This document shows, piece after piece, positions 165 through 64,000 of a stretch of 64,000 bases of DNA. Numbering within the stretch: the first letter of the stretch is position 1; every line of letters starts with the position of its first letter. Origin of the DNA: Mizuhopecten yessoensis (Eukaryota); NCBI RefSeq assembly GCF_002113885.1, contig NW_018406552.1, forward strand, positions 698,308 to 762,307, read 5' to 3'. The notes beneath the pieces are model-generated. The model was not told where the DNA came from and did no database searches. It worked only from the letters and a program-made list of their open reading frames with translations. Both the position numbers and the translations under genes were made by a program.

Positions 165-3100
165 CTTCAGAGTCCATACACTGTGCTACAGTACAAGCAC
201 AGGTAAGAATGTCTTTGATGTTTGTAAGCCAGTTACTAGATTCCAGTTTAGACAGCCACTTGTCCATACTAGCCCCATTGTCACTGCAGGCTGGAATAAA
301 CACAGCAAACAATTATTAACAAGGAAAAACGGAAGTGGTTACATTCCTAACAGAAATGAATGTAAACATCTGATATTTTGTAGAAGTATTTTGATAATAA
401 GTTTGAATATCTCAATATCAGGAAGTTTTCAATTTTTTGCTGTGTTGTAAGACAATGAGATGCAGCCGTACTTACCTTCCATTAGTTTGATAAGGGACTC
501 GTGGAAGTGTTGTCGCCGTTCTATTGGCTGGTTAATTCGCCTCCACTGTGAGTAGTGTGCCTCTGGCTCGTAACCGCCACCTGTGGCATCAGAGGATATC
601 TATATCAATAAAGTCTTTGTTAATTCATGTTACTTTAACAAACATAATAGTGTTTAACAAAAAATGAAAAATAAAATATTCATGTCCTAATTTTCTGACA
701 ATCTTTCGACTCAGGATATTGTTTTATTTTGAGTTTTACCATTCACGCAACAAATAAGGTCATATGAAGACGGGTGCATAGGGAGACGTCACCAAAAGAT
801 ACTCTAAGAGTAGGAAAAGACAGATCTCAAGTACTGCAATGAGGGCAGAAGATCAAATTTGGTCTCTTCAATATCCTCCAAATAGAAGACCCTACGGGTA
901 CATTCGCGTATCCGGTTGAAACAGTTGAACCGGTAAAGAAAACGACGGGTACAGATTTGGACCGAGGCTGACCTCAGAAAAATTTGGTACGTGTAGATCG
1001 AGGGGTCCAGACGTACCTGACCAAAACTAAAATGCTGACTATTGCCAATTTGCGATATTTCTTTCTTAAACAATGTCAAGTCACATGTAGTTTTTAAGAT
1101 ACGTTATGTATTTTAGTGGATGCGTGAGAGAAGGGCTTAATATTCTTGATACATTGTTTTTTATTCTCCGAAACTGTGGATTTTATGCTCTGTTTATAGA
1201 ACGGTCCAGGTGTGTTCGTTTATCGTGGAAAATTTCTGCGCCACACGTACCTTTTCAACCGGGATACGCGAATGTAGCCTAAAGAAAGTCCTTGATTCTG
1301 CAAGGGGGTTCTTAGTTGGGTCCTATATAAGTTACCTCCCCTGATTCTGCAGGGCTGGGGGAATCCTACATTAGTGCCTCTTCCAACATGCATGTGGTAT
1401 ACAGTAGGTCTATTCCTATCCTGAACCCTTACTATTGTGCATGTACTATTAACCTGAAGTCAACAAGACCCACACCTTTACTCTGGGCTGACTTGGCAGC
1501 ACTTGATGACCTTGTGTCCACAATGTATCCACGCTTGCCAATGCCAAGGACAGAGTTGACCAGTTTCTCGTCTTCCCGACAACGCTTATTGTTCTGACCC
1601 GTCAGAGGCTGACTACTCCGCATCATCACGGCCTGCATGAGACATTAAAATTCAGTGATATAATAATTGGAGGTACCTATGTACCGCTGTATCACAACCT
1701 AGATCGTAGGTCGTCTCAAAGCGGTTCACAAATTATTTCAGTGGTTATAGGGCCTTCGCAACCAGCCAATATCTTTCTCAACTCCCTGGGGAGCATACAG
1801 CCGGGGCTACCATTTCAGCACTCACAGCTAGCATTCTACAATTCTAGCACTACCCAACCACATACTCATTTACAGCTGAGTAGACTGGAACAGGCGGAGT
1901 ACAGTTTTTTGCTCAAAGATACAACACAGTGCCATGACGTGAGTCGAACTCACAACCCTTCGGTCATGACCACTAGACTACTGTGCCTCTTAAAACTATT
2001 ACTCAGGCCCTTCTATAGCATGTTTTATATGACACCATGAATGTAATGTAAAAATGGTGTTAAAAGAAAATTGTTAAATATATATGTTCATATTTAACTT
2101 ATTCACCCCTGACTTTTCATAATGGACTATTCAAACCTTTGAACTGGAAGACTTCAAATGTGTCTTCAGGGGTGAATGAGTTAAATGAATAAATGAAAAA
2201 TCTCCAGACCCTTGGGTGATTATTCAGCAGAGTCTCAGGTAAGACAACCAAAACAACACCCCTAAGGTTGGAGATCTCTCTGTCACACCCTAAATGTAGG
2301 GGAAGATTCTATTCATCAATATTATAGCATGATCTGAACGTCATACCTATAAGGTTTTACCTTAGTTTGTTTACTGTAATAGCTAAGAACTGGAAATCGG
2401 CCATGCTGACGAAACTGGGCTGCTTTTACAAGCGTGTCGTCATCAACTGTCTTAGGAACAATGACAGCATGTGGATATGACGGACATACCTACAAAATAA
2501 AGGAAACAACGCCATAAGGTAGTGACCAGTAAAACAACATAAATACCATGCAGCAAATGAAGAAGTTCAAACAAAAAGCAATGTTCAATACTTGAAGTAC
2601 CGCTTATAAGAACATTTTCTACAAATCCTAATACATTTGTTAATATGTAATGCAACGGATTTTGGTTTGATAAAAGAATTTGTTTTCATTTTCGTTTAAA
2701 TTTCAAATGTGATGTTAGCACTGTTTAAACTATACTATTGATTGTTTTCATAAAATTCTACTGTTCAGCCTTGATAATCCATTCCCCTCCATTCTTAGCA
2801 ACAGTGGCTTGTTTGTATGAAGACTTGATTACTGGGACAAGTTTGTATAGCAAAAGGGAGTGAATCTGACATCTTAAACACAGTCTGAATAGCGTAACAA
2901 GCAGATAATGGGTGGATGAATTAACAAGAACAAACTTGAGCAATAATTCTTTTAATTTCAATATTTCAAGAACTTTTCCCCATTTTATATTTTATACTTA
3001 GAGAAAAAACTTGAATATCATTGACTATAGGTTAGTTCATCCCCGCCTACCGAATAGTCCTTGTTGACGTAGCTAAGTCTCCATTCCTCCGAGCATTCCT

Positions 3101-4537
3101 TACAACGTGTGTACTCATTCTCAGGGAGAAAAGCCTGCCAGCCGTCCTCCAGAGGCTCAAACATGGCACGGTAGAAAAATGGGTAGCTCAATGTCAGGTT
3201 ATCTGTTAAAACGACCATGTTACATGTTTTAAATGAATTGATTGCGACTAGCTTTTATTAACATTAAATGAAGGCAGGGAGAAACTTGGGTGAACCAGAG
3301 ATGGTGTCAAAGCCAGTTATAATACTGGACTGTTTAAGAATTTTTTGTTTTGTCTTATAATCACTCACACCACTTCTGGAGCCTTGCAATGCAATGAATC
3401 TTCAAAACAGGTGTAAAAAAAATATTGTAATAATGCAGGGGTGTAATTAGCCACTGGTCCACTGGCCCGTGGTTTTCCACGCAGTTCAGTAGGTTTTTCA
3501 ACCAGCTATCCCGCCAGGCCAGTAGATATTTTGTAAATTTATCTAACATTTCAGCAGAACTGATAAGCTTTATTTTCAGCCAAGAATGCTCCACAGAGCT
3601 TCTAGATTTCAAAATTTTCTGGGGAAGCAAATGAAGATAGACGGTAATTGTCCAGTGTCCTTACCAATATTGGAGAGCTGTTCTATGGAAGCCCCGACAT
3701 TGAGACAGTCCTCTGCCGACTGAAACTCGAGGGCGACCAGTGTAAAGTCTTTACACTTCAGCGATAGAATTCCACCGGGCTGAGACAGCTTCTTCTCTAT
3801 ACTGTCAACATTGTTGTGTAGCAGCTACAAAGTATATGGAAAATGAAAGTACTGTGTGTGTGTACGTACAGCTATGTAGAATTGGTACCATCTTTTAAAT
3901 AAATTAAATACATTTTGTATTGAAAATGAGAGTGTATCTGTATACCAACTACAAAGTATGCAGAAATTACATGTTAAGATCACTACTTCTTTACTTACTT
4001 TTATAAGGGCAGCATATAAAGTACTGCACAGTATTCAGCAGTTCATCAGTCTATTTGCTGTAAGCCTTTTTTAAGGTTGCAACTACAGTTTAGATATCAG
4101 GTACGTATAAATTGTACTAGCGATTTTTATAATACTACTTTCAGTATACCAAGCAGCATGCTAGGAATTATATATATATGAATATATATATTTATCACTC
4201 AATTGCAATGGCATTGACATAATATGAATATCCCTACCAAGGTCAAATGGCTAACACGCTTCATGGAACTTGTCACATGCCAGTCAGCAATCACATTGAC
4301 TAAGAATGCCAACGGAAAGCAGTTGAAATCTTAAATGGGACATGGAGGTCACAATTTAAATATTATACAACATGATGTATAAAGAATTACCCATAGTTCC
4401 TCCTTGTTGTCCTTCCGTGATGACAGAATGAGGTGATGCCCTGTGATACAAAGTGTTCCTTCAACAGACTTACGGAATGGCTTCCACAGAACCACATTGT
4501 TCACCATTGGCTTCTTAATAAATTCTGCAAACTCCAT
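165..4537 (-). CDS. MTMR9: Myotubularin-related protein 9 (pseudophosphatase), 5' part; gene continues beyond the left edge. Exons: 4391-4537, 3665-3824, 3051-3202, 2361-2489, 1476-1632, 476-580, 165-290
   Basis: Seven GT-AG exons join in frame (phases 0,1,0,0,1,1,1) to MEFAEFIKKPMVNNVVLWKPFRKSVEGTLCITGHHLILSSRKDNKEELWLLHNNVDSIEK...LSYPFFYRAMFEPLEDGWQAF...WRLSYVNKDYSVCPSYP...FRQHGRFPVLSYY...MMRSSQPLTGQNNKRCREDEKL...GGGYEPEAHYSQWRRI...WLSKLESSNWLTNIKDILTCAC. This is collinear with vertebrate MTMR9 as I recall it (MEFAELIKTP...VEGTLCLTGHHLILSSR...). Confidence 0.95.
896..1279. mobile_element. MITE, PIF/Harbinger-like
   Basis: Terminal inverted repeats GGGTACATTCGCGTATCCGGTTGAAA and TTTCAACCGGGATACGCGAATGTAGCC. 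Flanks TAC/TAA resemble a TAA/TWA target duplication. No coding capacity. Confidence 0.7.
1657..1989 (-). mobile_element. tRNA-derived SINE (family 1)
   Basis: Minus strand reads GAGGCACAGTAGTCTAGTGG...GAGTTCGACTCAC (A/B boxes), a body with CAGTCTACTCAGCTG and TATGCTCCCCAGGGAGTTGA, and an ATT-rich tail. It aligns over its length with the copy at 49207-49527. Confidence 0.75.
2094..2184. mobile_element. Miniature inverted-repeat element bounded by TTAA
   Basis: TTAACTTATTCACCCCTGA ... TCAGGGGTGAATGAGTTAA: 19-bp inverted repeat with one mismatch, including TTAA at both ends. Confidence 0.6.
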
Positions 4538-4937
4538 CTTTGGTTATCTCCCTTTTCAAAGAAAACAAGACATCTTACAGTCTTCATTTAGATTCTGTCA
4601 ACAGAGTGCTTCTTTAGAGTCCTTGTTATTCAATAGTAAAATAGTCTGGATAAGTTTCTGAGAGAACCAGGAACTCTTATATAATTGTAGATCTGAGATA
4701 CGTTAATGATCCAAGTAACGTCACATTCATCTATTGTTAAATATTTCTGTGTTATGATTTTAGTTTGGTGAAGAGGATCTGTATAGATCCTGTATCGGTA
4801 AATAAACTTCACTTAATTAACTTAAAACAAAATGAAACAAAACAATTTAATATACTGGGTCAATTTTGTAGATTATGCAAATTACACAGGATCGACTAAT
4901 CAACAAACCGTACTGAATACATTTTTCTATTCAGAAG

Positions 4938-45770: not shown

Positions 45771-48700
45771 TCAGCCAACTAAATTATCAGACGGTAAATT
45801 CGCCTCACATGTAAACTGAAAGGCATAGCCTGTATCTGGGTTCATTTCGTAATTGTCAATTATATCATTGGCCCCGGTAAAGCAAAGTGACTTAGCAACC
45901 TTTCGGACTTTATTAAAATATATACCAGCATTCGGCCCATAATCATCATGAGGTGTCAAGGATATTTCAAAGTTAGAGTTGGTTATATTGAAGCCGCCCG
46001 ATTGAAAATCCGGTGAAATATTACTGCAAATAAAATAAAACTTGTAAGCATCTACAAAAAATCGTAAAATCCCAGAATTAACAGTACATATCAGCATCAA
46101 ATACGACTTAAATACAGTCTTGCTGAATTCCTTTAACATTTCATGTCCCTCCAAGATGGTGGTTACATTTTTGTTTACTATTTGCAGGCAATGTACACTG
46201 GAAGCAGATTTTTGATGCATTATGAGTAATCAGTGCTCTTCTTAAAAATAAAACGTTGTTTGGCGAATGGATTTTTCGCCTAATGAAGAATTGAACTACT
46301 CGGCAACCGAGCAGTCTAAAACACACTCAGATTAACAAAAGGTTTGGTTAGTGAGGTGGTAGAGCGCTAGGCTTGTGACCTTGAGATGTAAAAATCGACT
46401 TCAAGCAAAGTCTTTATCCATTTATTTAAATTTCATTTATGCTATTGTTTTCAACAGGGCATTTATTAGTGTAAGATGTTATCAAACATACCCTTTGAAC
46501 AGTGTGCAAGGTGGTAGATCTACGGGTAAATGAAACTGCAGAACGGCGAGACACAGATAACTTTTCAACTTTTTTCTAGTTATAAATATGAACCCAAATC
46601 GCAGACAAATCATAACTTTGAAAGGTCGCCTTTCCGTGTCATTTGTTAATAATCTGTTTAGTTTATTGTAAATATTGATGAAATCATAGATCTTTCATTA
46701 TTGTATGCTGCAGCTGTATAAATATCAAGAATTATCATAACAGTTTGAATAAGCATCATTGAATCGTTTATTTATTGCCGCTTAGTAAAATTACTAGAGT
46801 AGCATTTCAAGAATGAAATACATACCTTTTCCTGCAAGAAACTGATCTAGGAACTGTCAGTTTTCCTTCTAATCTCGTAGCGATGATTTTCCCACTGCTC
46901 GGATCTTCATAGGGGCATCTGTATTCTATACATGCCGCTCTATTCAAAATATTGCCAGCCTTTGGGTCTTCTTTTGGTCCTGACGTCATACTTCCGTAAT
47001 AGAAGTTACTTTGGTTATTGTAACTTTCCAGTTTGATACTGACGTTATAGAATGGTGTCTACAAAGGAAATGCCGTACAATATTACCATAAATAAAATTT
47101 GCATATTGAAACTAAAATATCACATCAGATGATATTGTCGTCATGACGATTAACTTGTAACCGTTTATTGCAGAGCAGAACCGAATTAACTGCGAAATTT
47201 TAAAATCCAAAATCAGATTAGGCTTGTTAATGTCTACTGGGGAAAGAACACTCAATGTCCTCCAGGAATATGTCAGTTTATATAATATTTGTAGATCTAT
47301 CATTTTCCCCCTCAAAATAAAGACAAAATAAAGAAAAATGTTAATTATGTCCCTTGCTTAATAGTTGAAAGTATTATTGCTTTTGTAAGACAAGTGGCAT
47401 TTGATCACATGTACACGCATAGCCTTTCATGTGACATTTAAAAGCATAACCACCTACCTTTTTTCCTAAAGCATATAGAAATGCATATTTTCTATAAAAA
47501 CTGTTACTAAAAGATTCAGATATCCACATTCCTGAACAAGAAGCCCATTATATGTTCTACCCCGATTGCTATAGATGTTAATAATTAAAATAATGTAGAC
47601 TGCCATATTTTTTGTTACACATTATCCTAGAAAAGCTTGTTCGCTAAGCCTTAATAATGTTATGAAACGTCGTCATATATCCCATTTAGTAAAACAACAC
47701 ATGCTGAAATGTCTGTTTTTGACAAAATAATAACAAATGCAACAAGGAGTTGTAACAAATGTTGTATGATAAAAACCGAAATAAATACCTGGACCTTGAC
47801 CTTGATGTAGCAGACCTTATATCCAGACTCGCCCTCACGTAGTGGGTACCACGATTCGTCGTAAGAGAGTTTTGATGCATTTGTGTTTTCTTCGAATTTA
47901 TCCGGTGGTCCAAGGAAATGAAAACCGATGTAATAAGCTAATGGCTGTGGATTTTTGCACTCAGGAAGAAAGCCTTTTGTATAAACAGGACCAGGCGGAT
48001 GAAAGAAAGCTGGAATCTGATATATTTTTTTTAACAGTATTTCGGTTGCACTTAATGACGTACTGCTTAATTGACTTGGCATCAATTGATTGGCAGCTAT
48101 ATGTAAGCGCTCGATTCCAGTATCGACAAATATTATAGCATTTTTTCTACATATTGTTCGAACACATGCGTTACCGTTTATATCAGTTTGGGCTTCTGTA
48201 TAGCCCGTGAAATTAATGTTATTGTCCGAGTGCGTCGGGTCTATAACTAGCGCAAACACAGACACATTATTTGCCGGGTACTTAAGTGCTGAACTCTTGA
48301 AGACTTTAACATTGACGTAGCAGTAATGTATACGAAGACCATCCAGCATGGAGGCTTCAGTCAAGTAGTTCACTTGTGCATCGTAGGTAGAGTCCGATCC
48401 ATTGTCGAGAGTGAAATTTCGTGCTCTATCAAAAAGTAGTGCTCTGTGCACGTGTATTTTTCTTGCCGGTACTGAAATATAAACAACTATCACTTCATAG
48501 TATCGAAAAATGTACATCTATTTTGCGTGATGCAATAGTGCGTTTCTGCTTCAAGCGCATTAAGGTAAAATAACTGAATTATTTAATAGTATCTCTCAAA
48601 GTTGAAATAGAAAGAGAATCTGACGACATTTTGCTAGAAATAATATATAATGTCTATAAAACTGCTATGTTGGGTGAAACCTCAGATTTTGCGTTAAATG

Positions 48701-50375
48701 ATTACGAAGGGGTGCGCAAAATTTTAAGGAATGATATCGGTTTTGTACGTATCTTCACATTATTTATTTGATTATAATGATATACATAGAAATCTCGGTC
48801 AAATCCAAGTAATATCACCTCATCAAAATGAGAACCAGGAAACCATGACAACACCAATGAGTGTGATACATACTACTGTGTTGTATGTTTGACCGTCAGT
48901 AGTCGTCATTTATCAAAGAAATCATGATATGCAATACTGAATCAACTGCGATGTAAACATCAAAGGCTTAGAAAGTATGATGCTTATCGTATAGTTAATT
49001 AGTACGTCTTCCATGAAAATAACGTTGCTTGTAAAACTCGAGATATAGGCTGTTGTTGTTCATGACGAAAAAACGATCGACGTGGTCATTGAATTTCTTG
49101 TTATTTATAATAGTACATCCTCGAAATATACTAACGTGAAATTGAAATATTTGATAAGGTTGTGTAACCATTCCTTATGATCTCATTAATAAATTCAACT
49201 TCATATGAGGCACAGTAAACAAGTGGTAAGACGCCGGGCTCGTGAACCAATTGTTTACCGTGCGAGTCACGTCACGTTGTATCTTTGAACAAGATACTTT
49301 TCTCCGCTTGCTCCAGTCTACTCAGCTGAAAAATATTACTTGACTAGGCAGTGATAGAATTGTTGATTGCTAGATGTGAGTGCACAGAACCGGCTCTATG
49401 CTCCCCATGGAGTTGACAAAGATATTGGCTGGTTGCAAAGGCCCAATAACCACCTTTGAGACAATCTACGACCTAGGTTTTGATTAAGCGGTATATAAGA
49501 ACATCGCATTATTAATTATTATTATTTATGAAAACAAAAATAAGTTGGACTGAATGGGTAAATAATTCGTTCCCATAGAAATGCATAAAGTTTGAAAAAT
49601 ATAGCTTGCCAACTCGTAAGAAAACCATATAAATAATAGTCAACCAGCTGCTCAATCAGTCTCACAAGTTCGAAATCAATATGTTTTTATTTGGAGTTTG
49701 TTTTTATCACGAAATATGACTTTTGTTTTTTTTTTGCAAACTTCAATTATTACTTTTATATGATTGACACAGTTATCAAGAGGGGAATCAGTTGTGCCAG
49801 GTGTTGTATAAAACAATCTGATTTCCCATTTGGTTTGTGTTTACAAATTTGGATGTTTACATGTGGTTGTTAGAGTCAAAGCTTTATCGTGGTTTATTTC
49901 AAGGATAATATTTCAAAGCCAATTTTTTTTTCTTCATTTACCTATCTATATAACGTCTCATTGGCTTTTGAAAACAATATGAACATTTATGAAAAGTTAG
50001 ATAAATATGTTACAAAGTTACAAAGTTTGTAGTATTTATCAAAGAGGTGTGATTGATAACAAGATGCCTTTTGTAACACAGACCGTTTTCTTTATTGCAC
50101 ATTTAATTATGCAAAGTTACTTACGTCAAATTTCAGAATAAACAGTAAGTTGAGTTGAAGATGTGAACCATAGGAAAACAGTTTCCATTGATTTAAATAG
50201 GGATACATAGATTAATAGAATAAAAACATGAGATTTCCTTATTTCAGTAAAAACATATGAACATTTAACTTTAAATATTTTGCATGAATGTCTCACCTTG
50301 TTGACCGATGACAAAATGTTGTGATACAAGTGCAACCAATAGCAAATAGCGAACGATCACGAAACAGCAAGTCAT
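45771..50375 (-). CDS. Secreted CILP C-terminal-fragment-only protein (gene C), ~415 aa. Exons: 50297-50375, 47789-48471, 46826-47058, 45771-46023
   Basis: Exon 1 is signal-peptide-like, MTCCFVIVRYLLLVALVSQHFVIGQQ, with a phase-1 GTGAGA donor. Exons 2-4 carry CYVNVKV, NGNACVRTIC, GPVY, SWYP, CYIKVKVQ|, RAACIEYRC, YGPNAGIY, LCFTG and AFQFTC, matching the C-terminal part of genes A/B with the same phase-0 and phase-2 introns. 1248 nt in frame; nine N-glycosylation sequons. Confidence 0.85.
49207..49527 (+). mobile_element. tRNA-derived SINE (family 1), second copy, in intron 1 of gene C
   Basis: Collinear with the reverse complement of 1657-1989 (GAGGCACAGTA...CCAGTCTACTCAGCTG...TATGCTCCCC..GGAGTTGA.AAAGATATTGGCTGGTTGC...); ATT-repeat tail. 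Confidence 0.75.
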
Positions 50376-52234
50376 TGTTCTGTAATAGATGCAAAATCAA
50401 TTTATGATCTATTTATTATTCTAGAATGTGTTATAAGACTGTGATATACATGTAGATGTAAAAGAAAAATACAAACCTTTTGCGTGTATCCTTCGACACA
50501 ATCTTATGAAGTCTATTTGGTGTCCTCTGAGAGTGTGAATATAATGCAGATTTCCGAGCAGTATCTATGAACACTTCAAGATAAAGTTCGACCTAAGATA
50601 AGGCCGAACATCTCGGTCAAGTTATTGTCATTCATCATTTTGGAGCTGAACAATCGACCATTTCAGTTTGTTTTCTTATAATGTGATATCTTTTAATCAG
50701 GTTTGCTCAAAGAACTGATAATATCTTAAAATTTGTTGCAAATAATGCTACTGCTTTGTTGAAGATATGATTTATGTTATCATAGATAAGTGCATTGGTG
50801 TAAATATATGAATCGTCATGAGAGAAAACAACTATCGTTTCTAAAATAGCATTAAAGTCTCATTAACTTTATGGCCGATAACAAAATGATACAAACTTAA
50901 TTAATATTCATATGCATATTTATATACTCTTTTTATAGAGTTGATAATTTTCGTCTGCAATGATAAAAAGGAAATGAATTTACAAGGTAATTATGGTAAA
51001 CAATATATTTTTGTTCTGTTTCTATTAATCGCTGGGACATTTCCGATGATTTATGATATTACCACTACACTTAAGCTGCGTGAATACATCTGAATAAGTG
51101 ATTTCTCCCTATTTTGGTATCGTAGAACAACAAAATGATGTCTATGTAAACAGTTAAAGGTAGACCAATTATAGTAATTAATTATTAATCATCAACGTTT
51201 TTACCTGTATCTTTACATTGTTGCTGTGTTAAACTGGTTTTGCATCACCTTTATTTATATATTTTGGCACAGTTGGTGAACTCGCTTGGCTGATTGTTCG
51301 TTGAAATCGTCTAACTAAACAGCATGTAACAACAAAATTAAATGATAACAAAATACACCAATACTTTAAGTATTAAAGTTTTATTAATTACAAATTGCAA
51401 AATCATATTACATTTGCAATAGACACTAGGCAATTCAACAACAAAACATATCATCATTTTTATAATATTAAGTACCAGTACATGCTTACAAAGACAAAAA
51501 AAGAAGTAAATATTGCACTATTATATATCACATTGACAAAAACAGAAAATGAAATATAGCAGCATAAAATATGTAGAAAAAAATAATATAGCACTTATAC
51601 AAGCAGAATTGCAAAGTGGTCTCCAAGAAACCTTATGTTTGAAGTTGTAATAATACATCGATTAGAGTTGAATATGTTATTAAAATAATATTGATATCAT
51701 TTTATATTCATTGTATCATCAGCACCAGCTTTAAATTGATATAAACTACGTTAATATCAAAGGAAACACAGGTAAATCAAGGAAATACAAATTAACCACT
51801 TTTACGACGTGTTAAAATACCACCAGTAATTGAAGGGCTATATGAAGATACTGCTTTTTAGTGAATATTACCTGTAGGCGCTCATCATTTAGGTCACATA
51901 TATGGTATGAACCTTCTTATTTCAATACCATATGTTTAACATATTACAATTCAATATGCTTACAGTAAAATTGAAAATGAAATAAATACATAAAAGTCTA
52001 CATACTGCGAAAGAACATAATTATAAGCTTGTTTCTCAAGAGTGGGCGAACGGACCTTGTACATGGTATGACCTTTTTACAAATATAGTTGTTTTATCTC
52101 TTGCGTGATTGTTTGCACTGGGCATTTACTCTTATCTTAGAACATGTCGGCTCCATATGTTCAAACAGCAATTGTTCACGTCTATAGATATGCTTTTTTT
52201 ATTGTTCCATGACACAATTTTGTAATTTCATTCT

Positions 52235-52540
52235 TTGGATACATATAAACTTGATAAAAATATTGACATTAATATAAGTACAATTCTAATTTGGGTCACA
52301 GGAGATACTAATAAAACAAAACCAACTAACATCATCATTACATACACTAAATACTACATATTCTGTAATGCAAAGAAAAGAAATCTCTTAATAATAGGAT
52401 TGAAAGAATACCTAACTCAAACATTTACACACGAAATTACCTTGTCACAAAAAATATGCAAATCCAAAAATTCAACAAAACTTGGAATGAATGGAAAAAC
52501 CTATTTACCTAGTAAAAACCTAGTCGAAAAAAATATTTGA
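52235..52540 (+). mobile_element. 3'-terminal relic of an L1/Tx1-like LINE ORF2
   Basis: NIIITYTKYYIF..K...GLKEYL....EI.L then, after a frameshift, QKFNKTWNEW: the typical pattern of L1/Tx1 ORF2 C-termini. Confidence 0.5.
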
Positions 52541-53204
52541 AAATCATAGCCAAGTGATGAACTTCAAATAGTTGGTCACCCATATACCCTTATGAATTAC
52601 AATAATTAAATATTGTTGTCTTTTTTATATGTATTTGTAGCCTTTTATACACATTAATATATACAATGTACATATAGATGATTAAGTGTTAACTTGCTAA
52701 TATACATGTGTTTTATACACCCAAAAAAGGCATAATGGACTCTGTTGAGATGTATTTGTTGTGTATAGTACAGGTCCATATGTATATGTGAATATATGTA
52801 TAGTATACATGTGTATGTGTAGCAGTGTACAAACGTGTGCATATCCGCATAAAATACAAACAAGTTTATACAAAGTAAAACGATTTTTATTGTTTTCTTC
52901 TGTTTATATGTCAAATTGTAAACTTGTACAAGTATAACATATGACAATACCAAATTGTGTACTGTTTTCTTATATATTATCAAATCCTTACCTATTAATC
53001 TCAATAAAATAAATCCCCTTTAAAGATTAAAAAATACCCGTGTGCTTCTTGTTATCTGTGTCGCCTGAATGACACGTATAGGTAACAACCTATCCCATTT
53101 GCACGTGCAAATACCACCAATAGCGACACCTATTGGCGTATATCATAACAAAGAGAAAATAAGTACACCCTAATTCCTACCGTCAACCGGTTGAAATGAT
53201 ATTA

Positions 53205-53520
53205 TATTATTTTATACTGTATACCTATAATGTATTACAATGTCAAATTGTTTACTGTATAACTATAACATATATATCACAAAGCCAAATTGTGTACTGT
53301 TCAAGTATCATGTATCACAATTCAAAATAGCATACTGTATAAGTATAACATCTCACAATTCAAAATTGTATAATGTATAACTATAACATATCACCAGGCA
53401 AAATTGTTTACTGTATACGTATAACATTTCACAATGCCAAATAATATACTGTACAAGTATAACATCTCACAAAATTATGTACTGTATAAGAATAATGTAT
53501 CTCATTGTCAAATTGTATAG
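53205..53520. repeat. ~38-bp degenerate minisatellite
   Basis: About 8 units resembling CAAATTGT(G/T)TACTGTATAA(C/G)TATAACAT(A/C)TCACAA; two more units near 52908-52965. Confidence 0.8.
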
Positions 53521-53559
53521 TGCATTCCTTTAATGACTAATGTGCGTACATCATACGAG

Positions 53560-53790
53560 CGTATCTGCGTGTGTGTGTATGTGCGTGCATATGCACATGT
53601 GTGTGTATAGATGTGCGTACATATGTACGTGCGTGCATGTGGAATTGTGTATGTGCGTATGTATGTAAACTTTGTATGTGTGTGGGTGTATGTATGTATG
53701 TATGCATGCATTTATGTATGTATGTATGTATGTTATGTATGTATGTTATATATTATGTTAAGTATGAATGCATGCATGTTTGTGTGTTGG
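53560..53790. repeat. TG/TATG-rich low-complexity repeat
   Basis: (TG)n and (TATG)n runs; explains the Cys/Met/Val/Tyr ORFs at 53508-53945. Confidence 0.9.
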
Positions 53791-54794
53791 TGTTTATGTT
53801 CACATGTAACTGTTTTACTATGTATTACGATAAAATATATATGTTTTTTGTCTATGAATAAAACAAAAACAAAACAAAAAATTGTATATACGCAATGACA
53901 GGACGTTGGATAACATAAATGTTGGATAAGATAAGTTTTATGCAAAATTTTCTACATGGGTTATTTGATACCGTGCCTTCTGTCCATGACATCATCACCG
54001 TATTAAGTAATGATATTTCGATTTGAAGTTTCTTGGTTATACTTTGAAACTTACAAAATGTTCAAATAAATATCAGTTTTATAAATTCATTTCGTTTCAG
54101 ACTATAAGTGTTTATGATATAAATTTATATTATGCTCATAATCATATTTTTGGAGAGGGATCATGGATACCTTTCTAAAGTCATTTTAATGACTACAGGG
54201 AATGTGTTTGCTCTTTAATTTTTATGAGATGGATTAATTTGACGCCGACTTCTAACTGTATTGAAAAAAAATCATTTTCTTCTCATTGTAACACAGCGGG
54301 CATGAAAATATTTCGCATCCGTCATGACAGTATGGTAAATATACCGCAGCGATAACGCACAAGATCAAAAGGTCGTAATGAGCGAGCGGGCGGACAACGG
54401 ACAGTCGGACGGATTTGTAGCTAATGTGTTGTGTTCTCTGGTCAAGTTTTTGAATTATTTATGTTATTGTATTTTTTAGCTTTTGAAATTTCCATTGTTT
54501 CCTTTTGTATTTTATTTATCAACTTTATTTATATTGTATTATTGCGTTGTCGCATATTAAATGTAACTGTGATATACTTCGTCTCTGTAATGTTTGCTTA
54601 AGCATAGAACACTCTTTATTGCTAGTCAGATAAGGTATTGATCCCAAACACTTGAATTAAAAAATACCATAAATCATTAACGTGATGTTTATAGCAACCA
54701 CTCAAGACGTTTCCTTTTCATTTAAGTCCACAAATGCACTATACATGCATACCGGATTGTATGCACATGTTATCGGTGTAGCTCTTTTTCCAAG

Positions 54795-57700
54795 ATGTCA
54801 CATACAGCATTTATATGCCTTGTTTCTGCCTTGATTCTTGCTGGTGTTTGTATCAGGTAATTTTGAAAGAATGATAGTATATATTTGTGACACAGTTATA
54901 CTTGCAATTGCAACTTTTGTTGATATGTTTTTTACAATAATGTGTATTGTATTTCAGATTATCGTCAGCAACCAAGCCAACACATCGGATTCGACGTCAA
55001 ACATCGTATGTAGATATGTTTAACGATTCGTGTTTTTACATTATGAGTACATATTTGATATTTCTTGTCGAATATTTGTTTCAGTGATAATTCAGACCGT
55101 CACAATAAAATATTGAAAACTATTTATTCTATAAAAGTGATATATTTCACTGAGTGACAAATATCAAAATGATAGTGAAAATATCGTTTTCATCTGTTTT
55201 CACCAATCGAAACACTGATAACAAATCACCAGGAAAACTCACTTATCCTGATGATGAAAAATCTGCCCAGAATAATCACCTGTTACCAACATGGGGGACC
55301 ATAATCTGGGGGAAAGACAACGTTTAATTCCATACTCAATTTTTATTTTCATACAAACCAACACACTATGCAGGTCAGTTGTTTTTGATCGGGGGGAAAG
55401 TCAAATGAGTCATCTCTGACAGTGACAATGGCGCTTCCAATTATAAACCACTCATAGTATTCTGAGTTGATATGACGGGACATTTATCAAATAATTGAAT
55501 TTTGATAGTAATTTCCATAGTCTTTGATGAAAATGCGAACTTAAGTACCTACTATTTTAACATAAGTAATTATAGGAATTTAATAATGAGTTTTTATAAA
55601 ATACCAAAATATTGACACATATTTTGCTGCGTATGATTGTTTATTGTCAGTTTCATGTGTCGCTACACGTTCCAGGGTAGGTTTTTGCTGGTAAAAAGTG
55701 TAGTACTCGTGAAAGATACCAATATGTCAGCAAAACTCGTAAAATACATTTCATTATCACAAAAGGACTAATTTATATTCTCTGAAACTGAATTCGAAGC
55801 TTATTAAAACTTAAAAAAAAAAAAATCAATGGTGACATTTAAAAACATTATGTTGAAATAGGATATGCATTTATTTAATCAAACTATTAATCTGTTTCAA
55901 CTGTTATAACACTCTTAATGGTGTTTGGACAGGATATATTCCAATTATGAAGAAAATATGTACAACCATAAGCCTTGACATTCAAATTATCTAATAAAAT
56001 ATGTTTTGCCTGTTTTGATTAAGGCTTTGGTGGAGAACTTCATCTTCTAGTTCTTCAGGATATCAAGGTAAATACTTTCAGTGTATTCCAAAAAACGTTA
56101 ACGATGACTTCCATCCAAAGAGAAGATTGAACGTTTAGAAATTCTCATTTAGCACTTTGGTCGCAGATAACACAAGTTGATATACTTCAAACATTCAAAC
56201 ATTGTGTATGAAGATTTAACAAAGATTTTAATTTATCAATGGATTTAGAAAAGAAAATTGTCTTTAACTTCCAGTCGACCGAAGTATACACTTAAGCATG
56301 AACACAATATGTTTGCAGCTACACTTCTTTTTGAATTTGTATTTTTTATATTTCTGTCTTGCTTGATGGGCGGATTGCCGCTTTTTCTTTTGCCTGCACT
56401 GTCGCTTATATATCTCTGCTTACCTATTTATATAAGCGATACATATCCAATGAAAATATGTTTGTTTGAATCAAGTGTCTGAATTAGCCGTACCGTCCTT
56501 ACTATGTATGATACCTATATATATATTTGTGTCTTTGTGTGCGTGCAGGTTATTTACATGTAGTTCCCAAAGAATTTCAAAGACAATTATCTCCTTTATT
56601 CTTATTACGGAAACACGTTTACCTGTCAAATGAATTATAAGAACATAATTTTTTTTCACGTTACTAAGGCGTCATAATAAAATCACCTGTTGGAAATCTT
56701 GTTCTCTATAATTTTATGGATTTTTTTTTATCTATTAAACAGATTTTAGTGAATGCAATTAACTATTATTATATATTTACTGGTGAAATGTCAGGAATTA
56801 ATAATTAAAAAATATGAATATTATATCTAATATGTGAAGATATGGCTTTGAATATTGTCAATGCAGAACGGTAGTTTCTGTAAAGATTTTTTTTATTAAA
56901 AGTCAGATGATTCGACGGCAGAATAATTGGTTGTATAGATAAACCTTTGAAACAAATGTACGGTATGAATATAACTACAAAATTGATATAGTTTTTGTTG
57001 GGAAATCTTACCAGTTGATAGCAGCAAACGGCAGAATTGCAGTAAGTTACTGTTCATTAAATAGGAAAAGCACATGACCTTCTTCTTGAATCTGGACACT
57101 TATTACTGATATCGGTGTGCCTGTAACAAGGAAACTACCTTGCGTTGAAGTACCGTTGAAGTTATGGCAGCATTTCCACAATAGCACACTTCTCAAAAAT
57201 CGCAGAACCAATGTCAGCCACTGTTGACAAAACCATCATTTGGAAATGTGTAAAAGAAAGTGTAATAGAATGTTTAATAGAACGTGTTAAATTGATGACT
57301 TAAACACCCCGGAAACTAAGTGCGAGATACAAAAGCGGCAACTTTGAATATCTGTTTAAAAGATTTTACCTTTAGATCAAGTACTATCAGAGCTGAATTA
57401 ACGGTTATTGCATTTTTACCTATTACATGTAGTCACCAATTTTGTCGCTGAAAGGGGTCATATTTCCAATCAAAACAAATAGGCTGGAGACAAGGATATT
57501 GGTCCCACTAGGTCGCTGACTCTTCAGAGTCCTTGTGGGGGAACCCAGGAGGGTTAAATATTGCTTTTTTAAAAACAAATACAGATATACTTTTGTATGA
57601 AGATATGTAAAGGGTTAATTATTAAACCTTTTTCTAGACGTTATGATAAATGCGGGAGTAGGGCCTTTGAAGTTGGCAAACGGGACCTGTTCTATATGTA

Positions 57701-60700
57701 TGGAAATAACACAACTTTCATTTAGCAGGGGTAAGATAATTTAACACATGCAACATCGGTTGTATTGTAAGAACCGGAGAAAATCATTTTATTTTAAAGT
57801 TCTCGATTTAATTTAACCGAGTTACCGAAATTATCAGACGACCTTCATTATACATTTCAAATACTTCTCTTATATTTTTCTGAAATTTGCCAGTCTATTT
57901 TTTTATATATATATATGGATGTATCAGGGCTCATACTCAATATTTTGTTTGAATTTGCTCACTTGTTACCCAAATGCGGCCTTACCTAACGTCGATGGTT
58001 GCATATCGTATTGTGACAAAAACAAAATAACTTAATGTAGAATAAACCCTTTGCAAGTCTTAGCAGTTAGAGACGTATTATGCTTATGGTCTTGATACGA
58101 CGCACTGAAATAGGTCAAATTACCAAAGGGCAAATGCCATATTCCTGTTGGCCTCTGGTCTTTGGATCTATGATAGAATACAATTGGAGCTGTTTAATTC
58201 CGTCAGGCATTGTGATATATTTTATTAAACACCCAACATCTTGTGATTAATATGAGCAAGATCCGTAAATAAAACAATAAATGTGTCTGTTCTGCTGTCT
58301 ATCACTGAAGTACTTATAGACGCTTACATATAATGTTTTGCAGTTTGTTATGATCAAACATATTTTTTTATCTAGATTTGTTAGTTTTCTATATCAATAA
58401 AATTATGTTGTATAATACACTAATAGAATAGCTATTTATAAAGAAAGAATGGTGTCTACAAAACAAGTTTTCCTTTTTGGAATTGTTTACATTTTGTCGA
58501 AATCATGCTGAAAGTAGCAGTCTGTATTAACTATCATAGCGAAGATTTCTTCTTTTTGAAAACTTCTAAATAATGTTATTATTTGCATATTTGACCGTAA
58601 TTTTGATTTTTGACACTAAAAACCTATATGGTATTAATACTACATAAAAAGGCCGCTCACACCTAAATATGTGCGTCTCATCAGATGGTGTTTGACATTG
58701 GCTGTTTCCCCTAATAGAATTCTGTTAACTTTTTTCAGAAAATACCTGTATACAAAAATGCTACAATGGTGGGGTATGCTACAACATAAACAAATGTAGA
58801 TGCACCTCACAATACAAGGGTACGACTTGTGAAGAACGTAAGTAATACAGTCATTAATTATGTTGGTATGATGAAATATTAGAGACATTATGAGACCTTT
58901 ATATTTTTATTTATGTAAATGCAATTGTTATGTTCAAACGCATAATTTAATCTTTATTATAGTCTCATATCCCAACTTCAACAACAATTTGTTATTGGTT
59001 ATAGTTAGGGATCTGCCACTACAAAATTAGAAAACATGATTTTCACAATTGCTGGCTGCTGCATTTGAATCATTTTTTTTTTCAGCTATTTGTAATGCAG
59101 CATGCAGTATACATGGCAACTGTATTCTTCCGAATGTATGCCAGTGTAGTACTGGATATGAAGGCAAACTTTGTGACTCAGGTTAATATACACATTTATA
59201 CGTTTTTTAGAAAAGAAAGGATGTACAAAACCAAAGGTACTACAAGTGTATGAGAGAAATTTGGCCAACAATCAATTTATTATACTTTTTGTACCATCAT
59301 TACTACTTTCGCTTCATGAATATCCAATAAATGTCAGAAGCCATATCATGTTTACCTTGATGGCCACAGTAATCGCTTTTGGGTGACACACATTTGTAAT
59401 GAATTCGAAACTAAGCAGTGCTCTGGGTTTTTTAAATTCATAAATTAAAAGTTTTGAGATACCTTCCCCTCTGTTTCATCAGTAGTTTAGACCTACTTGG
59501 ATTTCAATTATTTTCTGCCCCTAGCATCACCGATAAGACCTCAAAGGTGAAACAGCTGTATGACACAGTACAATTAATTCTGGGCATACTGTATCTGTTA
59601 CTAAATCTCAAAGGCGCAATCACCTCTGAGTGTGTGTTACGTTCGTCTTTTTACCTAATCATTATGTTTTTCCAACTCATACCAAATTTGAAGATATTCT
59701 GATTTTCCACTATATATGTGATTGTTTATTGTATCTGAAGACGTCTCTGTTCATATTTCACTGGTCGGAGATAAAGAATTTCCTTAAAAAAGATATGCAG
59801 GATTTAAAGGACTCGTAAGGCTAAGTTATGAATTGTTGAATATATTGAAACGTTTAATGGGTATATTGTTAAGCAAGTAATGCTGCACCCGTTCTCAACG
59901 TACCATATAGTAACTGTTACATAGCAGAAATGGAGTTTACCCGTTGAAATATTGTATGATATTGTTGTGCCCAAAATGTGCAATACATACTATTTGTGAA
60001 CTATTTGAAACTCAAAAACGCATATTAAGACGATGAATCGGATATTCCAAAAAATCTAAAAGAATCTTTCTATTTACATCCTAAAGCTATCTGTGTTCCT
60101 CAATGTCAAAATGGTGGCAACTGTTCAATGCCGGGGGAGTGTACATGTGACTATGAATATACTGGGGGATCATGCGAACAAGGTACTGTATAAAATAAAT
60201 TACAAATTTTGTATTGTAAGCTGTTCGTTTACGCTTGCATATTTTAAAATAATATATTTTGAGGAGATAAATGGTGTATTTCTAACATTTTTAGCAATAT
60301 ATTGATTTTCCTGATACATTAATTGAATTTAAAGCATGTTGTATAAATTATAGTATTCTATTAAAAACATAACACATTTGTCGACATACAAGGTAAAAAT
60401 CGGAACTATACGACAAAATACAAGATCACAGGAGATGCATACCAGAGAGAAAGAAAATTATATCGATTTATAGCTGTTTTTGTATGATGTATCTTCTTGT
60501 TGTTTTTTACTATCATTGGGATTGCATAAGAACTATTGTATATGTTGGAAAAGACTTTGAATCACAAACCATTTATCTTCAAAAACTGCTTCTACTTACA
60601 AGATTTTTTTGATTTTTTTTTAAATAATAGCTATTTGCAAGAATGAATGTTTGAATGGAGGAAAATGCACTTCACCAGATGTTTGTAAATGCACCAAGGG

Positions 60701-62902
60701 ATATACAGGATTTGTTTGCGAGAGTGGTAAGTATATGAAGTATATTGGAATGTTTTGTTTGATGTCTCGCCATCGGATCAGAACGAGACCCTTTCTGTTG
60801 ATATAAACGGTATGATTTTAAAGGGACTGTCAACACATTTTACATGGCATTATCTGGTGAATATTGAATAAATTATGAATATTTTTTATCCCTCTTCGTA
60901 AATATAAAGCTTAACCCAGGCATTAATGTATATAAGGGTACATTTCATTTACACTGTTACTATTAGGTTATGTTGCAAGTAAATATGTACGCGCAGTGTC
61001 TATTTAAGCAAGTAGTGTTGGAATCCAATTTATTTTTGCACTTTAGGAAGTCTCAAACAGTTTTTCCAAATGTAGAAGCATATATTGCAACTTGGGGCAG
61101 GGGTTCAATTTAAGTTTATTGTCTGTTAGGAAGGTGTTTTCGAAGAAACATCGAAATCTGCAGGGTCCCAATTTTAACTACTAACAACATTGCTAATTTG
61201 TAATTTACCGTGGTGTCTAATGTTTTGCTGGCTTAGGTTGTTTGTCATTGAAATTGCATACTGTATTTTGATAAAATGACGTTGTGTTTGTATGATTACA
61301 ATTCAGCTATTTGTACGAAACCCTGTTTGAATGGAGGTTCTTGTATTGCACCGAACATATGTGCATGTGCTTCTGGGTACTTGGGAGCCTTCTGTGAACT
61401 CGGTAAGGTATTAATTACATATTCATGTGTCGTATATAATAAGGAAAAGCATTGTCTTTGAATAAAAAATATGTTATTGCAGTGTACTTTACACTATGTA
61501 TACAAGTAACTAATAATATGATCGTTTTTTCATAAGGTGGGGACCCAGACTCTTTCCTGAGCCCTTCCTATCACTTCACCAATAAACAAACGGGTAACTT
61601 ATTGTCATGGTATGAGGAGGAGCCACTCTCAATATTTGGCAAAAGTTGTCTTGTAAAGGTTGAAATTTTGGTAAGAGAATATAAAGACTTTGAAATATTT
61701 GAAAATATGAAAACAGCTTAATTAAATCAGAAGTAAATAATTCAGTTTGCGATTAAATTGTTGTTACCATCAATTACAAAATAGTTGCAATCATCTGTTA
61801 CGTCAACAATTATTGACTGATACGTTTATCTCTCTCCTGCTTACTGACTAATGTAATACACACACATAAGTTATATAGAATACAAAACTAGCAATTATGG
61901 CTTTGTTTGACTAAATACTCTTTAAAAAAAACCAGAAAAATCATCTTAATACATTTGACATAGGAATATGATATTTAATCAGGAATTTTGTTTTTGAAAT
62001 GTGATTATAGCAGGCTATGTTTAACATGTTTGATATTAATTCGATCTACATATTGCTTTTTAATTTTTAACCTGTGAACCGGTAACTTATAATATTAATA
62101 ATATTAAACATCCTTTTTTTTCGATGTAGAATGCAGATGTAGAAACCTTACTGACAGCAACAAGCTACACATCAACTGGAGAACTCTTTGGAAATTATAC
62201 GGTTGGTGGAGCCGATCATGGTCTGCGAAGTAGCGGAACTAATCGGGCTGCGTGTCTTGAGTTCCGGTGTCCATCAGACATTCGTGAGGATTCTGTTATT
62301 GTCAATGTCACCATAGCTACATCCCGGCAAAACTGCAATATTACGTAAGTGTGTCGCTTAAGATTCAGATCGAAAGATCGATATGTGAATTGCAATGGTA
62401 TGAAAACCTAACAGCAATATGTTGTAATATTTATTATTCGTGTTGCTAATTTTTTGTTTTAAAGACTATTATTTCAGAAATTAGATATATTTGTCAGAAA
62501 TTAGATACATTGATCAGACACAAAGTTATTATTTGAGAAACTTATTTTTCCCACTTTTGCGATGCCTTTGAATCAGTAGCGGTTTTCAATATTATGTTTA
62601 GTATTAGACCGTAACACATGCGTCATCCTTCAATAGTAACCTTATGGCCCCGTTTTTGTTTCAGCAAACTGTCACCTTTATTGAATGTCATGGCTGGATA
62701 TGACAGTAACGAAAACCAAGAGGTGGCATTTCAGGTGCTACCACATAGAGATTATGGATCCATGTATGGTATATACATCACCTATGGACTTCGTCAAAGG
62801 ATACAGTATATTGGCGAAAAGATGTGCCGAAGTGGTACAAACTACGGCGGAGATAACGTTGTGCCAAGTGACGGAACTGCTTTAATTTATACTTGCAATT
62901 AG
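54795..62902 (+). CDS. Secreted 4xEGF + half CILP C-terminal module protein (gene D), ~405 aa. Exons: 54795-54856, 54958-55005, 56024-56067, 57638-57730, 59086-59181, 60087-60182, 60631-60726, 61307-61402, 61537-61670, 62130-62344, 62665-62902
   Basis: Signal peptide MSHTAFICLVSALILAGVCIRLSSA, then TKPTHRIRR. Four 96-nt phase 1-1 EGF exons (e.g. AICTKPCLNGGSCIAPNICACASGYLGAFCEL). Then SWY..SCLVKVEIL|, NRAACLEFRC, DYGSMYGIY, MCRSGT and ALIYTCN with the shared phase-0 and phase-2 introns. 1218 nt in frame. The last seven exons are firm; small exons 3-4 rest only on splice sites and phase fit. Confidence 0.8.
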
Positions 62903-64000
62903 ATGAAAAAAGGGATTATCATTGCTTCCAACGTTTTTTATTAGACGTGGACTTCATCACATTTTGCATTTCTATTTGCATTAATCAAGATGTATATTTG
63001 CCAAGGCAATAAACAAAACATTAGTCTAGTAAGCAATTCTATAATTGTTGATAACAAATATGAATTTCAGATAACTGGAATATGGTTTACAATTTTGTTA
63101 ATTTCTCATTTATATGCATGTAGAGATTCTCAGAAGTTTTTATTGAAGTTCCCGAAATCTCAAATCATAAAAAATGTTGTCAATGCTTCAAAACTAAACA
63201 AATATTTTTGTAATAAATAATTTCTCTAATACGTTGTTGTTTTATCTATATCACAAGCGGAGGCTAAGTCGGTAGGTAACCACCTTACTACTATTTTGAC
63301 GTAATACGGAACAAAGTAATAACTTAACAAAAATATAGCAGAGACCGAAATGTTTTTGCTTTATTTGGATTCTAGATACAATTATTAAAAACAAAAAAAC
63401 ACTAAACCTTTTATAAAAGGATCTTCATCTTATCACTGTGTACTTTTTTGAGATAATATATTCCTATATAGCGATTTAATGTTTATGGTTATTTGCTCAT
63501 ATAAAATACAATTTATTTTCTTAGAGTGTTGTCTCCAAATTCTAGAAGTCTTTCAAATAAATGAGAGAAAAGTTTGCTCAATATTTAGGAGAAAGAATTT
63601 ATTGTGTTCATTGTATACGATAAGAATTGTTTTCGAACAATTTTATATAGCCGTCATATTCAATGGTCCTGTAATTACTTTCATAGAATGAAAGTATAAT
63701 TTCCTTTTGGCAATTTAATTTGGAAATACAGTAAAAAAAGTTAATTTGAAATTCCTTTCGGCGCATTTAAATGGCAAAATATAAACGACAAAAGAATACT
63801 GAAATTTGAACTTAATGCGTTCTGAAATGGTCAGCGTCTTCTGCTCCACCAACAAAAGTTTGATCTTCATATCACACAAAGATATAGAATACGGAAATAA
63901 AATATTTAAAACAAAAGATTGACTTGAAAATACTCTTGAGTATACCGTGTATTTATCGATATGAAGGAGATAGTAGCAAAATTAGAACCAGGAACGTATT

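What the first reader, a model, noticed from the sequence alone, without database searches (positions are those of the whole stretch)
59086..62902. Gene D: exon-shuffled EGFx4 fused to the minimal terminal CILP domain
Seen: four exons of exactly 96 nt, all phase 1-1, all starting A-I-C, each a six-Cys EGF with consensus C..xCxNGGxCxxPxxCxCxxGYxGxxC. They splice to a 134-nt exon beginning ~20 aa before the SWY motif, a point internal to exon 7 of A/B and exon 2 of C. Established: symmetric phase-1 EGF exons are the classic shuffled module, and this short non-calcium-binding EGF type resembles those of WIF1-like proteins. Inference: a chimeric gene that delimits the smallest autonomous CILP domain (~195 aa). 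Automated annotation would likely label it only as an EGF protein.
Basis: partly seen in the sequence, partly recalled or inferred. Interest (0 to 1): 0.7.

Follow-up and report, generated by a model that had tools for sequence, protein, structure and literature searches.

The report
Ancient bivalve EGF-CILP fusion gene
A scallop gene splices small EGF repeats onto the end domain of cartilage intermediate layer protein (CILP), a join also seen in three clam species, so it likely encodes an old, misnamed secreted matrix protein whose binding role is predicted and not yet tested.

Summary
The fusion is real. Spliced contigs from three studies join EGF3, EGF4 and the three CILP exons at the predicted GT-AG sites. 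The 11-exon model equals a 407-aa scallop protein annotated 'delta-like protein 4', which has no DSL domain. The last 195 aa match Pfam CILP_C (E 1.7e-12, positions 16-200 of 200), keep all six cysteines and both introns of neighbouring CILP genes, and fold alone with pLDDT 92. So the 'minimal domain' is already delimited by Pfam. The fusion is not a scallop one-off: an EGF directly before CILP_C occurs in Ruditapes, Mactra, Mya and two unnamed clusters, with varied N-termini (TSP1, IgGFc-binding). These domains form one clade (100/100 in a 38-row tree, SH-aLRT 81 in a 95-row tree). Verdict: an old bivalve EGF-CILP_C family, likely a secreted, non-enzymatic matrix adaptor. I found no paper on it. 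It is a new domain combination made by a known process; its function is untested.

The parts
54795..54856 (+). Exon 1: ATG and hydrophobic signal-like peptide (aa 1-21)
   Evidence: Exact match to P0001, donor at 54856. Signal peptide is read from the sequence; no predictor was run.
54958..55005 (+). Exon 2: short pro-segment with R31-I-R-R34, a furin-type motif (motif recalled)
   Evidence: cleavage inferred
56024..56067 (+). Exon 3: 44-nt Ser-rich linker, phase 2 to 1
   Evidence: found through the database protein
58739..58837 (+).
   Evidence: Pfam EGF_2 E 0.0013; paralog exon on C82495
59086..59181 (+). EGF1, 96-nt phase 1-1 exon
60087..60182 (+). EGF2, 96-nt phase 1-1 exon
60631..60726 (+). 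EGF3, 96-nt phase 1-1 exon
   Evidence: joint to EGF4 in 3 of 4 runs
61307..61402 (+). EGF4, 96-nt phase 1-1 exon; the EGF that abuts CILP_C
   Evidence: joint to 61537 in 3 of 4 runs; junction aligns with clam homologues
61537..61670 (+). CILP_C exon 1 (134 nt, phase 1 to 0). Its acceptor lies at a point that is mid-exon in genes A, B and C.
62130..62344 (+). CILP_C exon 2 (215 nt, phase 0 to 2; AACLEFRC motif); both flanking introns shared with A, B, C
62665..62902 (+). CILP_C exon 3 to the TAG stop
62903..63229 (+). 3' untranslated region, minimum extent
   Evidence: contig X1 record 4 runs to 63229
45774..50375 (-). Neighbour gene C: signal peptide plus the post-furin half of CILP (415 aa), head-to-head with D, 4.4 kb between start codons
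   Evidence: P0005, 4 exons
12011..20742 (+). Neighbour gene A: near full-length CILP-like, 1061 aa, 9 exons
   Evidence: P0003
31514..43204 (+). Neighbour gene B: near full-length CILP-like, 1071 aa, 9 exons
   Evidence: P0004

Best explanation
Gene D is a spliced scallop gene that joins five short EGF repeats to the C-terminal domain of CILP, a join that likely arose once in an early bivalve and likely encodes a secreted, non-enzymatic matrix adaptor. Origin (inferred): a duplicate in the CILP cluster gained a phase-1 acceptor in the linker just before CILP_C. That let a 96-nt phase-1 EGF exon splice on, and the EGF-CILP_C end then kept or gained different N-terminal modules in different lineages: four more EGFs in scallop, TSP1 plus EGF in clams, IgGFc-binding in another. 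Working model (inferred): the protein is secreted and trimmed at RIRR. The EGFs form a spacer that presents a compact beta-sandwich, predicted to be closed by three disulfides, and this domain binds a matrix protein or growth factor as the end of full-length CILP would. Shown: exon structure, downstream splicing, CILP_C homology, shared junction in four bivalve genera, purifying selection. Predicted: autonomous fold and disulfides. Untested: secretion, cleavage, ligand.
For: Splicing: four joints, all GT..AG, in runs X1, X2, X7 from three studies. Single contigs in X2 and X7 span EGF3 to the last exon and carry 517 and 527 nt further upstream, against 474 coding nt predicted (the upstream fit is by length only). 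The model equals database protein P0001. Homology: CILP_C E 1.7e-12, 47.6 bits against a cut-off of 27; six Cys, W and AAC.EF.C shared with vertebrate CILP; phase-0 and phase-2 introns shared with A, B, C. Autonomy: pLDDT 92.2, pTM 0.89 for the domain alone; Cys co-loss in 95 domains pairs C250-C304 (6 of 6) and C326-C406 (4 of 4), leaving C299-C383. Age: EGF directly before CILP_C in 6 of the 150 listed representatives plus one cluster member; last EGF Cys to conserved W is 26-29 residues in 8 of 8; one clade, 100/100 and SH-aLRT 81; scallop is Pteriomorphia, the clams Heteroconchia. Module supply: 22 of 29 similar EGF motifs outside D and its paralog sit in 96-nt phase-1 exons. Selection: dN/dS 0.20 (EGF) and 0.23 (CILP_C) against the paralog.
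Against: No result bears directly on ligand or tissue. The three supporting runs are contigs labelled 'RNA?', and the one raw RNA run laid had 0 reads (no test). Clade support is 81 in the full 95-row quick tree, and the 38 rows of the careful tree were picked after seeing it. Intron positions in the clam genes were not seen, so the shared phase-1 intron is inferred from protein alignment. EGF4 is the closest of D's five EGFs to the clams' last EGF but only 5th of 40 motifs scored. No oyster or mussel EGF-CILP_C form was among the named hits; 41 of 191 hits were not listed, and 30 proteins were looked up for names. The TGF-beta binding of vertebrate CILP is assigned mainly to the N-terminal/TSP1 part (PMC7251193, PMC9052998), which D lacks.
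Confidence: 0.7

Rival explanations
1. Mini-CILP by internal deletion: the ancestor was a CILP duplicate that kept its own signal and TSP1 exon, lost the middle, and took in EGF exons. Scallop later lost TSP1 and multiplied EGFs. It would work as a shortened CILP (TSP1 plus CILP_C) that modulates TGF-beta-type signals.
For: Three of the five non-scallop clusters (Ruditapes P0036, Mactra P0037, P0160/P0032) have a TSP1-like segment at the N-terminus (for P0037 read from the sequence, no Pfam hit), as CILP does. Saccoglossus has TSP1+CILP_C. The Mactra gene has an accession three numbers from a full CILP-like gene on a contig of the same length.
Against: D has no TSP1, and a remnant in residues 36-54 is not supported (790 of 2000 shuffles score as high). 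Mya P0044 and P0035 lack TSP1. TSP1 is itself a common shuffled module. A new acceptor before CILP_C is needed in this scenario too.
Confidence: 0.2
2. Independent fusions: scallops and clams each attached an EGF to a free CILP_C, because the linker is the only tolerated cut point and EGF exons are abundant.
For: CILP_C is detached in other phyla. EGF exons of this type are plentiful. D is only 29-32% identical to the clam domains, against 20-30% to other bivalve CILP_C domains.
Against: EGF-fused domains form one clade in both trees, with 0 of 500 shuffles as clustered. The junction aligns almost without gaps and shares an L.P motif.
Confidence: 0.07
3. Annotation artefact or read-through: an EGF gene and a CILP fragment are separate units.
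For: One low-depth contig covers an intron (depth 14 against 240-285), so unspliced forms or DNA are present in that run.
Against: Direct EGF4>CILP_C joints in three studies; one open frame; the same exon sizes in a paralog with dN/dS about 0.2; the same fusion in clams.
Confidence: 0.02

Closest known systems
Cartilage intermediate layer protein 1/2 (CILP; Pfam CILP_C PF23599)
   Same: C-terminal domain with all six Cys and the core motifs; secreted-type precursor with a basic cleavage motif; lies in a CILP-like cluster and shares two introns with it.
   Different: Lacks TSP1, CarboxypepD_reg, Ig, CILP_5th, CILP and CILP_8th domains; has five EGFs, which genes A and B lack; the basic motif is N-terminal, not internal.
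Wnt inhibitory factor 1 (WIF1)
   Same: Five short non-calcium EGFs; best solved match, residues 80-210 to WIF1 144-274, E 5e-32.
   Different: No WIF domain; the EGFs come before, not after, the globular domain; the EGF array is not basic (10 K/R, 13 D/E), which argues against the heparan-sulfate binding described for WIF1 EGF II-V (PMC6292148).
Delta-like 4 / DSL ligands (the database name)
   Same: Tandem EGF repeats (PDB Delta-like 1 E 1e-17).
   Different: No DSL or MNNL domain hit and no membrane-spanning stretch after the EGFs (sequence); the name is wrong.
Transthyretin-like / CnaB / Ole e 1 beta-sandwiches
   Same: Best structural matches to the model: Pla l 1 Z 5.5 (rmsd 3.3, 98 aligned), EMC7 Z 5.3, pilins Z 5.2.
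   Different: Only half the 195 residues align, identity is 5-10%, and Z is within the range of common arrangements; Foldseek has no match at E<=0.001.

Membership tests
CILP_C domain (PF23599) | Score above the Pfam cut-off over most of the model | tested here: met
   47.6 bits against 27, model 16-200 of 200; paralog 31.7 bits
CILP_C domain (PF23599) | Six conserved Cys, W, and AAC.EF.C motif | tested here: met
   invariant in 13 of 13 aligned domains incl. camel and smelt CILP
CILP proteins (full family) | TSP1, CarboxypepD_reg, Ig and middle CILP domains before CILP_C | tested here: not met
   none in P0001; present in gene A
CILP proteins (full family) | Internal furin site splitting N- and C-terminal fragments (PMC7251193) | tested here: not met
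   only an N-terminal RIRR at 31-34 in P0001; cleavage itself untested
CILP proteins (full family) | TGF-beta binding or inhibition | not testable with these tools
   needs a binding or reporter assay
WIF1 | WIF domain | tested here: not met
   no Pfam hit at E<=5; PDB match confined to the EGF array
WIF1 | Five short non-calcium EGF repeats | tested here: met
   the exon type is common in the genome, so it is not diagnostic
WIF1 | Heparan-sulfate binding by the EGFs | tested here: inconclusive
   charge count only: 10 basic, 13 acidic
Delta/DSL ligands | MNNL and DSL domains (features recalled) | tested here: not met
   no hit
Delta/DSL ligands | Membrane-spanning helix after the EGFs (feature recalled) | tested here: not met
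   the C-terminal 195 aa are a globular beta-rich domain
Calcium-binding EGF | EGF_CA consensus | tested here: not met
   no EGF_CA hit in 5 of 5 exons at E<=1
Transthyretin-like/CnaB fold | Structural match well above background | tested here: inconclusive
   best Z 5.5, 98 of 195 aligned
Exon-shuffled class 1-1 module | Phase-1 introns on both sides of each EGF | tested here: met
   5 of 5 exons in D and 5 of 5 in the paralog
Exon-shuffled class 1-1 module | Same junction intron in clam orthologues | not testable with these tools
   no clam genomic DNA was available

The most novel reading that the evidence does not exclude
CILP_C is a mobile ligand-binding module with no close solved fold, set free several times in animals. 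Bivalves have kept an EGF-CILP_C cassette since before scallops and clams split, as the working end of a family of secreted proteins with swappable heads (EGF rod, TSP1, IgGFc-binding). Its ligand would also reveal the unknown job of the C-terminal end of human CILP1/2.
Probability: 0.25. Interest if true: 0.6.

Novelty: new variant of a known kind. Interest (0 to 1): 0.37.

Why it matters
It corrects a misleading annotation and defines a bivalve gene family that full-length Pfam scans miss (CILP_C not detected in P0001, P0036, P0037, P0044). It shows a module boundary made inside an ancestral exon, next to the parent genes, with a three-way split of CILP (near full-length, C-terminal half, end domain) that likely predates the scallop-clam divergence. 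It also offers a natural, confidently modelled 195-aa construct of a domain with no solved relative. The C-terminal fragment of human CILP is poorly understood, with only limited enzyme activity reported (PMC7251193). The process, phase-1 exon shuffling in matrix proteins, is well known, which caps the surprise.

Tried and rejected
TSP1 remnant in residues 36-54: rejected, 790 of 2000 shuffles score as high. Scallop-specific recent chimera: rejected by clam homologues and trees. Delta-like identity: rejected. Full-length structure prediction with 8 sequences: pLDDT 47.6, unusable. Homodimer prediction of CILP_C, prompted by tandem copies in amphioxus and hemichordates: no verdict (score 0.00, alignment not used, fold uncertain). 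PDB sequence search with the domain profile: 0 hits at E<=5. Foldseek: none at E<=0.001; VIA-align best Z 5.5, which shows neither a new fold nor a known one. ESM Atlas: no usable feature hit, TM<0.5. Word-based search with residues 212-407 found only D itself, a sensitivity limit, since the profile search found the clam forms. Run search: no RNA holder listed as on record; raw run X21 had 0 reads. Orthology of the last EGF by score: inconclusive. Paper searches for invertebrate CILP or this gene (listings only) found nothing relevant; supplements were not searched and may list the gene as 'delta-like protein 4'. Earlier scan findings: none.
Full report
Observation. The four 96-nt exons and the three downstream exons are at the stated places, with AG/GT ends and one open frame. 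A motif scan found a fifth six-Cys EGF at 58739-58837 (99 nt, phase 1-1). Three more exons upstream encode a hydrophobic leader, an RIRR motif and a Ser-rich linker. The 11-exon product is letter for letter the 407-aa database protein P0001, named 'delta-like protein 4 [Mizuhopecten yessoensis]', on a contig as long as the window's. Small corrections: the first 96-nt exon reads P-I-C when spliced, and two of the four EGFs depart from the stated consensus.

Is it one transcript? I laid 4 of the 24 listed runs on 60660-63330. Three contig sets, from three studies, show all four joints at the predicted GT..AG sites, including EGF4 to CILP_C. Single contigs in X2 and X7 run from EGF3 to the last exon and extend 517 and 527 nt further upstream; the model needs 474 coding nt there. 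The raw run X21 had no reads, which is no test. The runs are labelled RNA by guess, but exact intron removal shows spliced RNA.

The C-terminal domain. A Pfam scan of the whole protein reports only EGFs. The last 195 aa alone match CILP_C (PF23599) at E 1.7e-12, 47.6 bits against a cut-off of 27, model positions 16-200 of 200. All six Cys and the W, K, G and AAC.EF.C positions are shared with vertebrate CILP. Genes A, B and C in the window hit CILP families and share D's phase-0 and phase-2 introns. D's 5' acceptor falls inside exon 7 of A/B and exon 2 of C. With 66 sequences the domain folds at pLDDT 92.2 and pTM 0.89 as a beta-rich domain with one main helix. Co-loss of Cys across 95 domains suggests pairs 250-304, 326-406 and, by remainder, 299-383, all internal. 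No solved relative was found by sequence or Foldseek. VIA-align gives weak, half-length matches to Ole e 1, EMC7 and pilin sandwiches (Z up to 5.5). The domain is plausibly autonomous, but its boundary is the one Pfam already has.

The EGFs. They lack the calcium-binding signature, and the best solved match is WIF1's EGF array. The own-genome search gave 33 matches for EGF4. In the 30 loci returned, 22 of 29 motifs outside D and its paralog sit in 96-nt phase-1 exons. So the module is common and no donor can be named. WIF1's EGF II-V bind heparan sulfate (PMC6292148, passages seen); D's array has 10 basic and 13 acidic residues, which does not favour that.

Paralog and selection. A paralog is spread over two small contigs (C82495: EGF0-1; C82506: EGF2-4 and CILP_C; the link between them is inferred) with the same exon sizes except a shorter last exon. 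dN/dS is 0.20 over 156 EGF codons and 0.23 over 187 CILP_C codons.

Distribution. A profile search of 1.84 billion representatives gave 191 hits at E<=0.001, of which 150 were listed. Six listed proteins have an EGF directly before CILP_C: the scallop paralog, Ruditapes XP_060597302.1 (TSP1, EGF, EGF), Mactra KAL4224568.1 (TSP1-like, EGFs), Mya XP_052765126.1, and two unnamed clusters, one with an IgGFc-binding domain and one whose longer member has TSP1 and two EGFs. The junction aligns nearly gap-free, with 26-29 residues from the last EGF Cys to the conserved W in 8 of 8. In a quick tree of 95 full-length domains the 8 EGF-fused ones form one group (SH-aLRT 81). In a careful tree of 38 rows chosen afterwards (57 left out, including long branches P0115 and P0048) support is 100/100, beside a C-type group (100/96) and an A/B-type group (99/96), together 100/97. 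The C-type group has named members from scallop, oyster, Mactra and Mya; the A/B-type group from scallop, oyster, Ruditapes, Mya, Mactra and Mercenaria. Scallop is Pteriomorphia and the clams are Heteroconchia; their split is early Palaeozoic (recalled). Accession numbers hint at old linkage: Mactra D-type KAL4224568 against A/B-type KAL4224563-65, and Mya C-type WAR29041 against A/B-type WAR29046, each pair on contigs of equal length. The Mya D-type gene is on another contig. Coordinates were not seen. CILP_C is also detached elsewhere: TSP1+CILP_C in Saccoglossus, tandem copies in amphioxus and Ptychodera, and behind a Thr-rich tract in an unnamed protein. The domain reaches back to a sponge.

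Mechanism. Shown: structure, downstream splicing, homology, conservation. Inferred: one early bivalve event made a phase-1 acceptor in the linker before CILP_C, an EGF exon was spliced on, and N-terminal modules then varied. The product is likely secreted, trimmed at RIRR, glycosylated (four sequons), and presents CILP_C on an EGF spacer to bind a matrix or growth-factor partner. Vertebrate CILP is cut by furin into an N-terminal TGF-beta-binding fragment and a C-terminal fragment with limited reported enzyme activity; both fragments are said to lower Smad3 phosphorylation (PMC7251193 and PMC9052998, passages seen). D keeps only the last part of the C-terminal fragment, so TGF-beta modulation is a lead, not a finding. 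Rivals are a mini-CILP made by internal deletion (0.2), independent fusions (0.07) and artefact (0.02).

Novelty. Six paper searches (listings only, supplements not searched) found no description of invertebrate CILP derivatives or this fusion. Both domains and the shuffling process are known; the combination and its age in bivalves appear undescribed. Verdict: new variant of a known kind, interest 0.37.

Noticed in passing
window 45774-50375 (-): Gene C is a free-standing secreted version of the post-furin half of CILP; C-type genes also occur in oyster, Mactra and Mya and form their own clade.
   Followed up: partly
window 12011-12187 and 31514-31726: Genes A and B begin with a short polar segment and a long hydrophobic stretch, like a type II membrane anchor, instead of a cleaved signal and WxxW domain; the Ptychodera homologue looks similar.
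   Followed up: no
window 50375-54795: Genes C and D are head-to-head, 4.4 kb between start codons; a shared promoter is possible.
   Followed up: no
G000:C76476 1712-26160 (L049-L051): A second A/B-type plus C-type pair lies on another contig, both on one strand, whereas C is inverted relative to A/B in the window.
   Followed up: partly
G000:C5578 (L009-L012): A separate cluster of at least four CILP-like genes has an uninterrupted CILP_C; some copies appear frameshifted.
   Followed up: no
window about 800-4550 (-): Exons of a myotubularin-related (MTMR6-9 type) gene.
   Followed up: partly
window 60727-61306: Low-depth contigs cover this intron in runs X1 and X2 (depth 14 against 240-285 in X1): retained intron, pre-mRNA or DNA.
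   Followed up: no
P0054 (Styela clava): A zonadhesin-like protein (VWD, C8, TIL, Sushi, EGF) ends in the CILP, CILP_8th and CILP_C domains: another CILP fusion.
   Followed up: no
window 29987-30130: A 144-base assembly gap between genes A and B, amid repeats.
   Followed up: no
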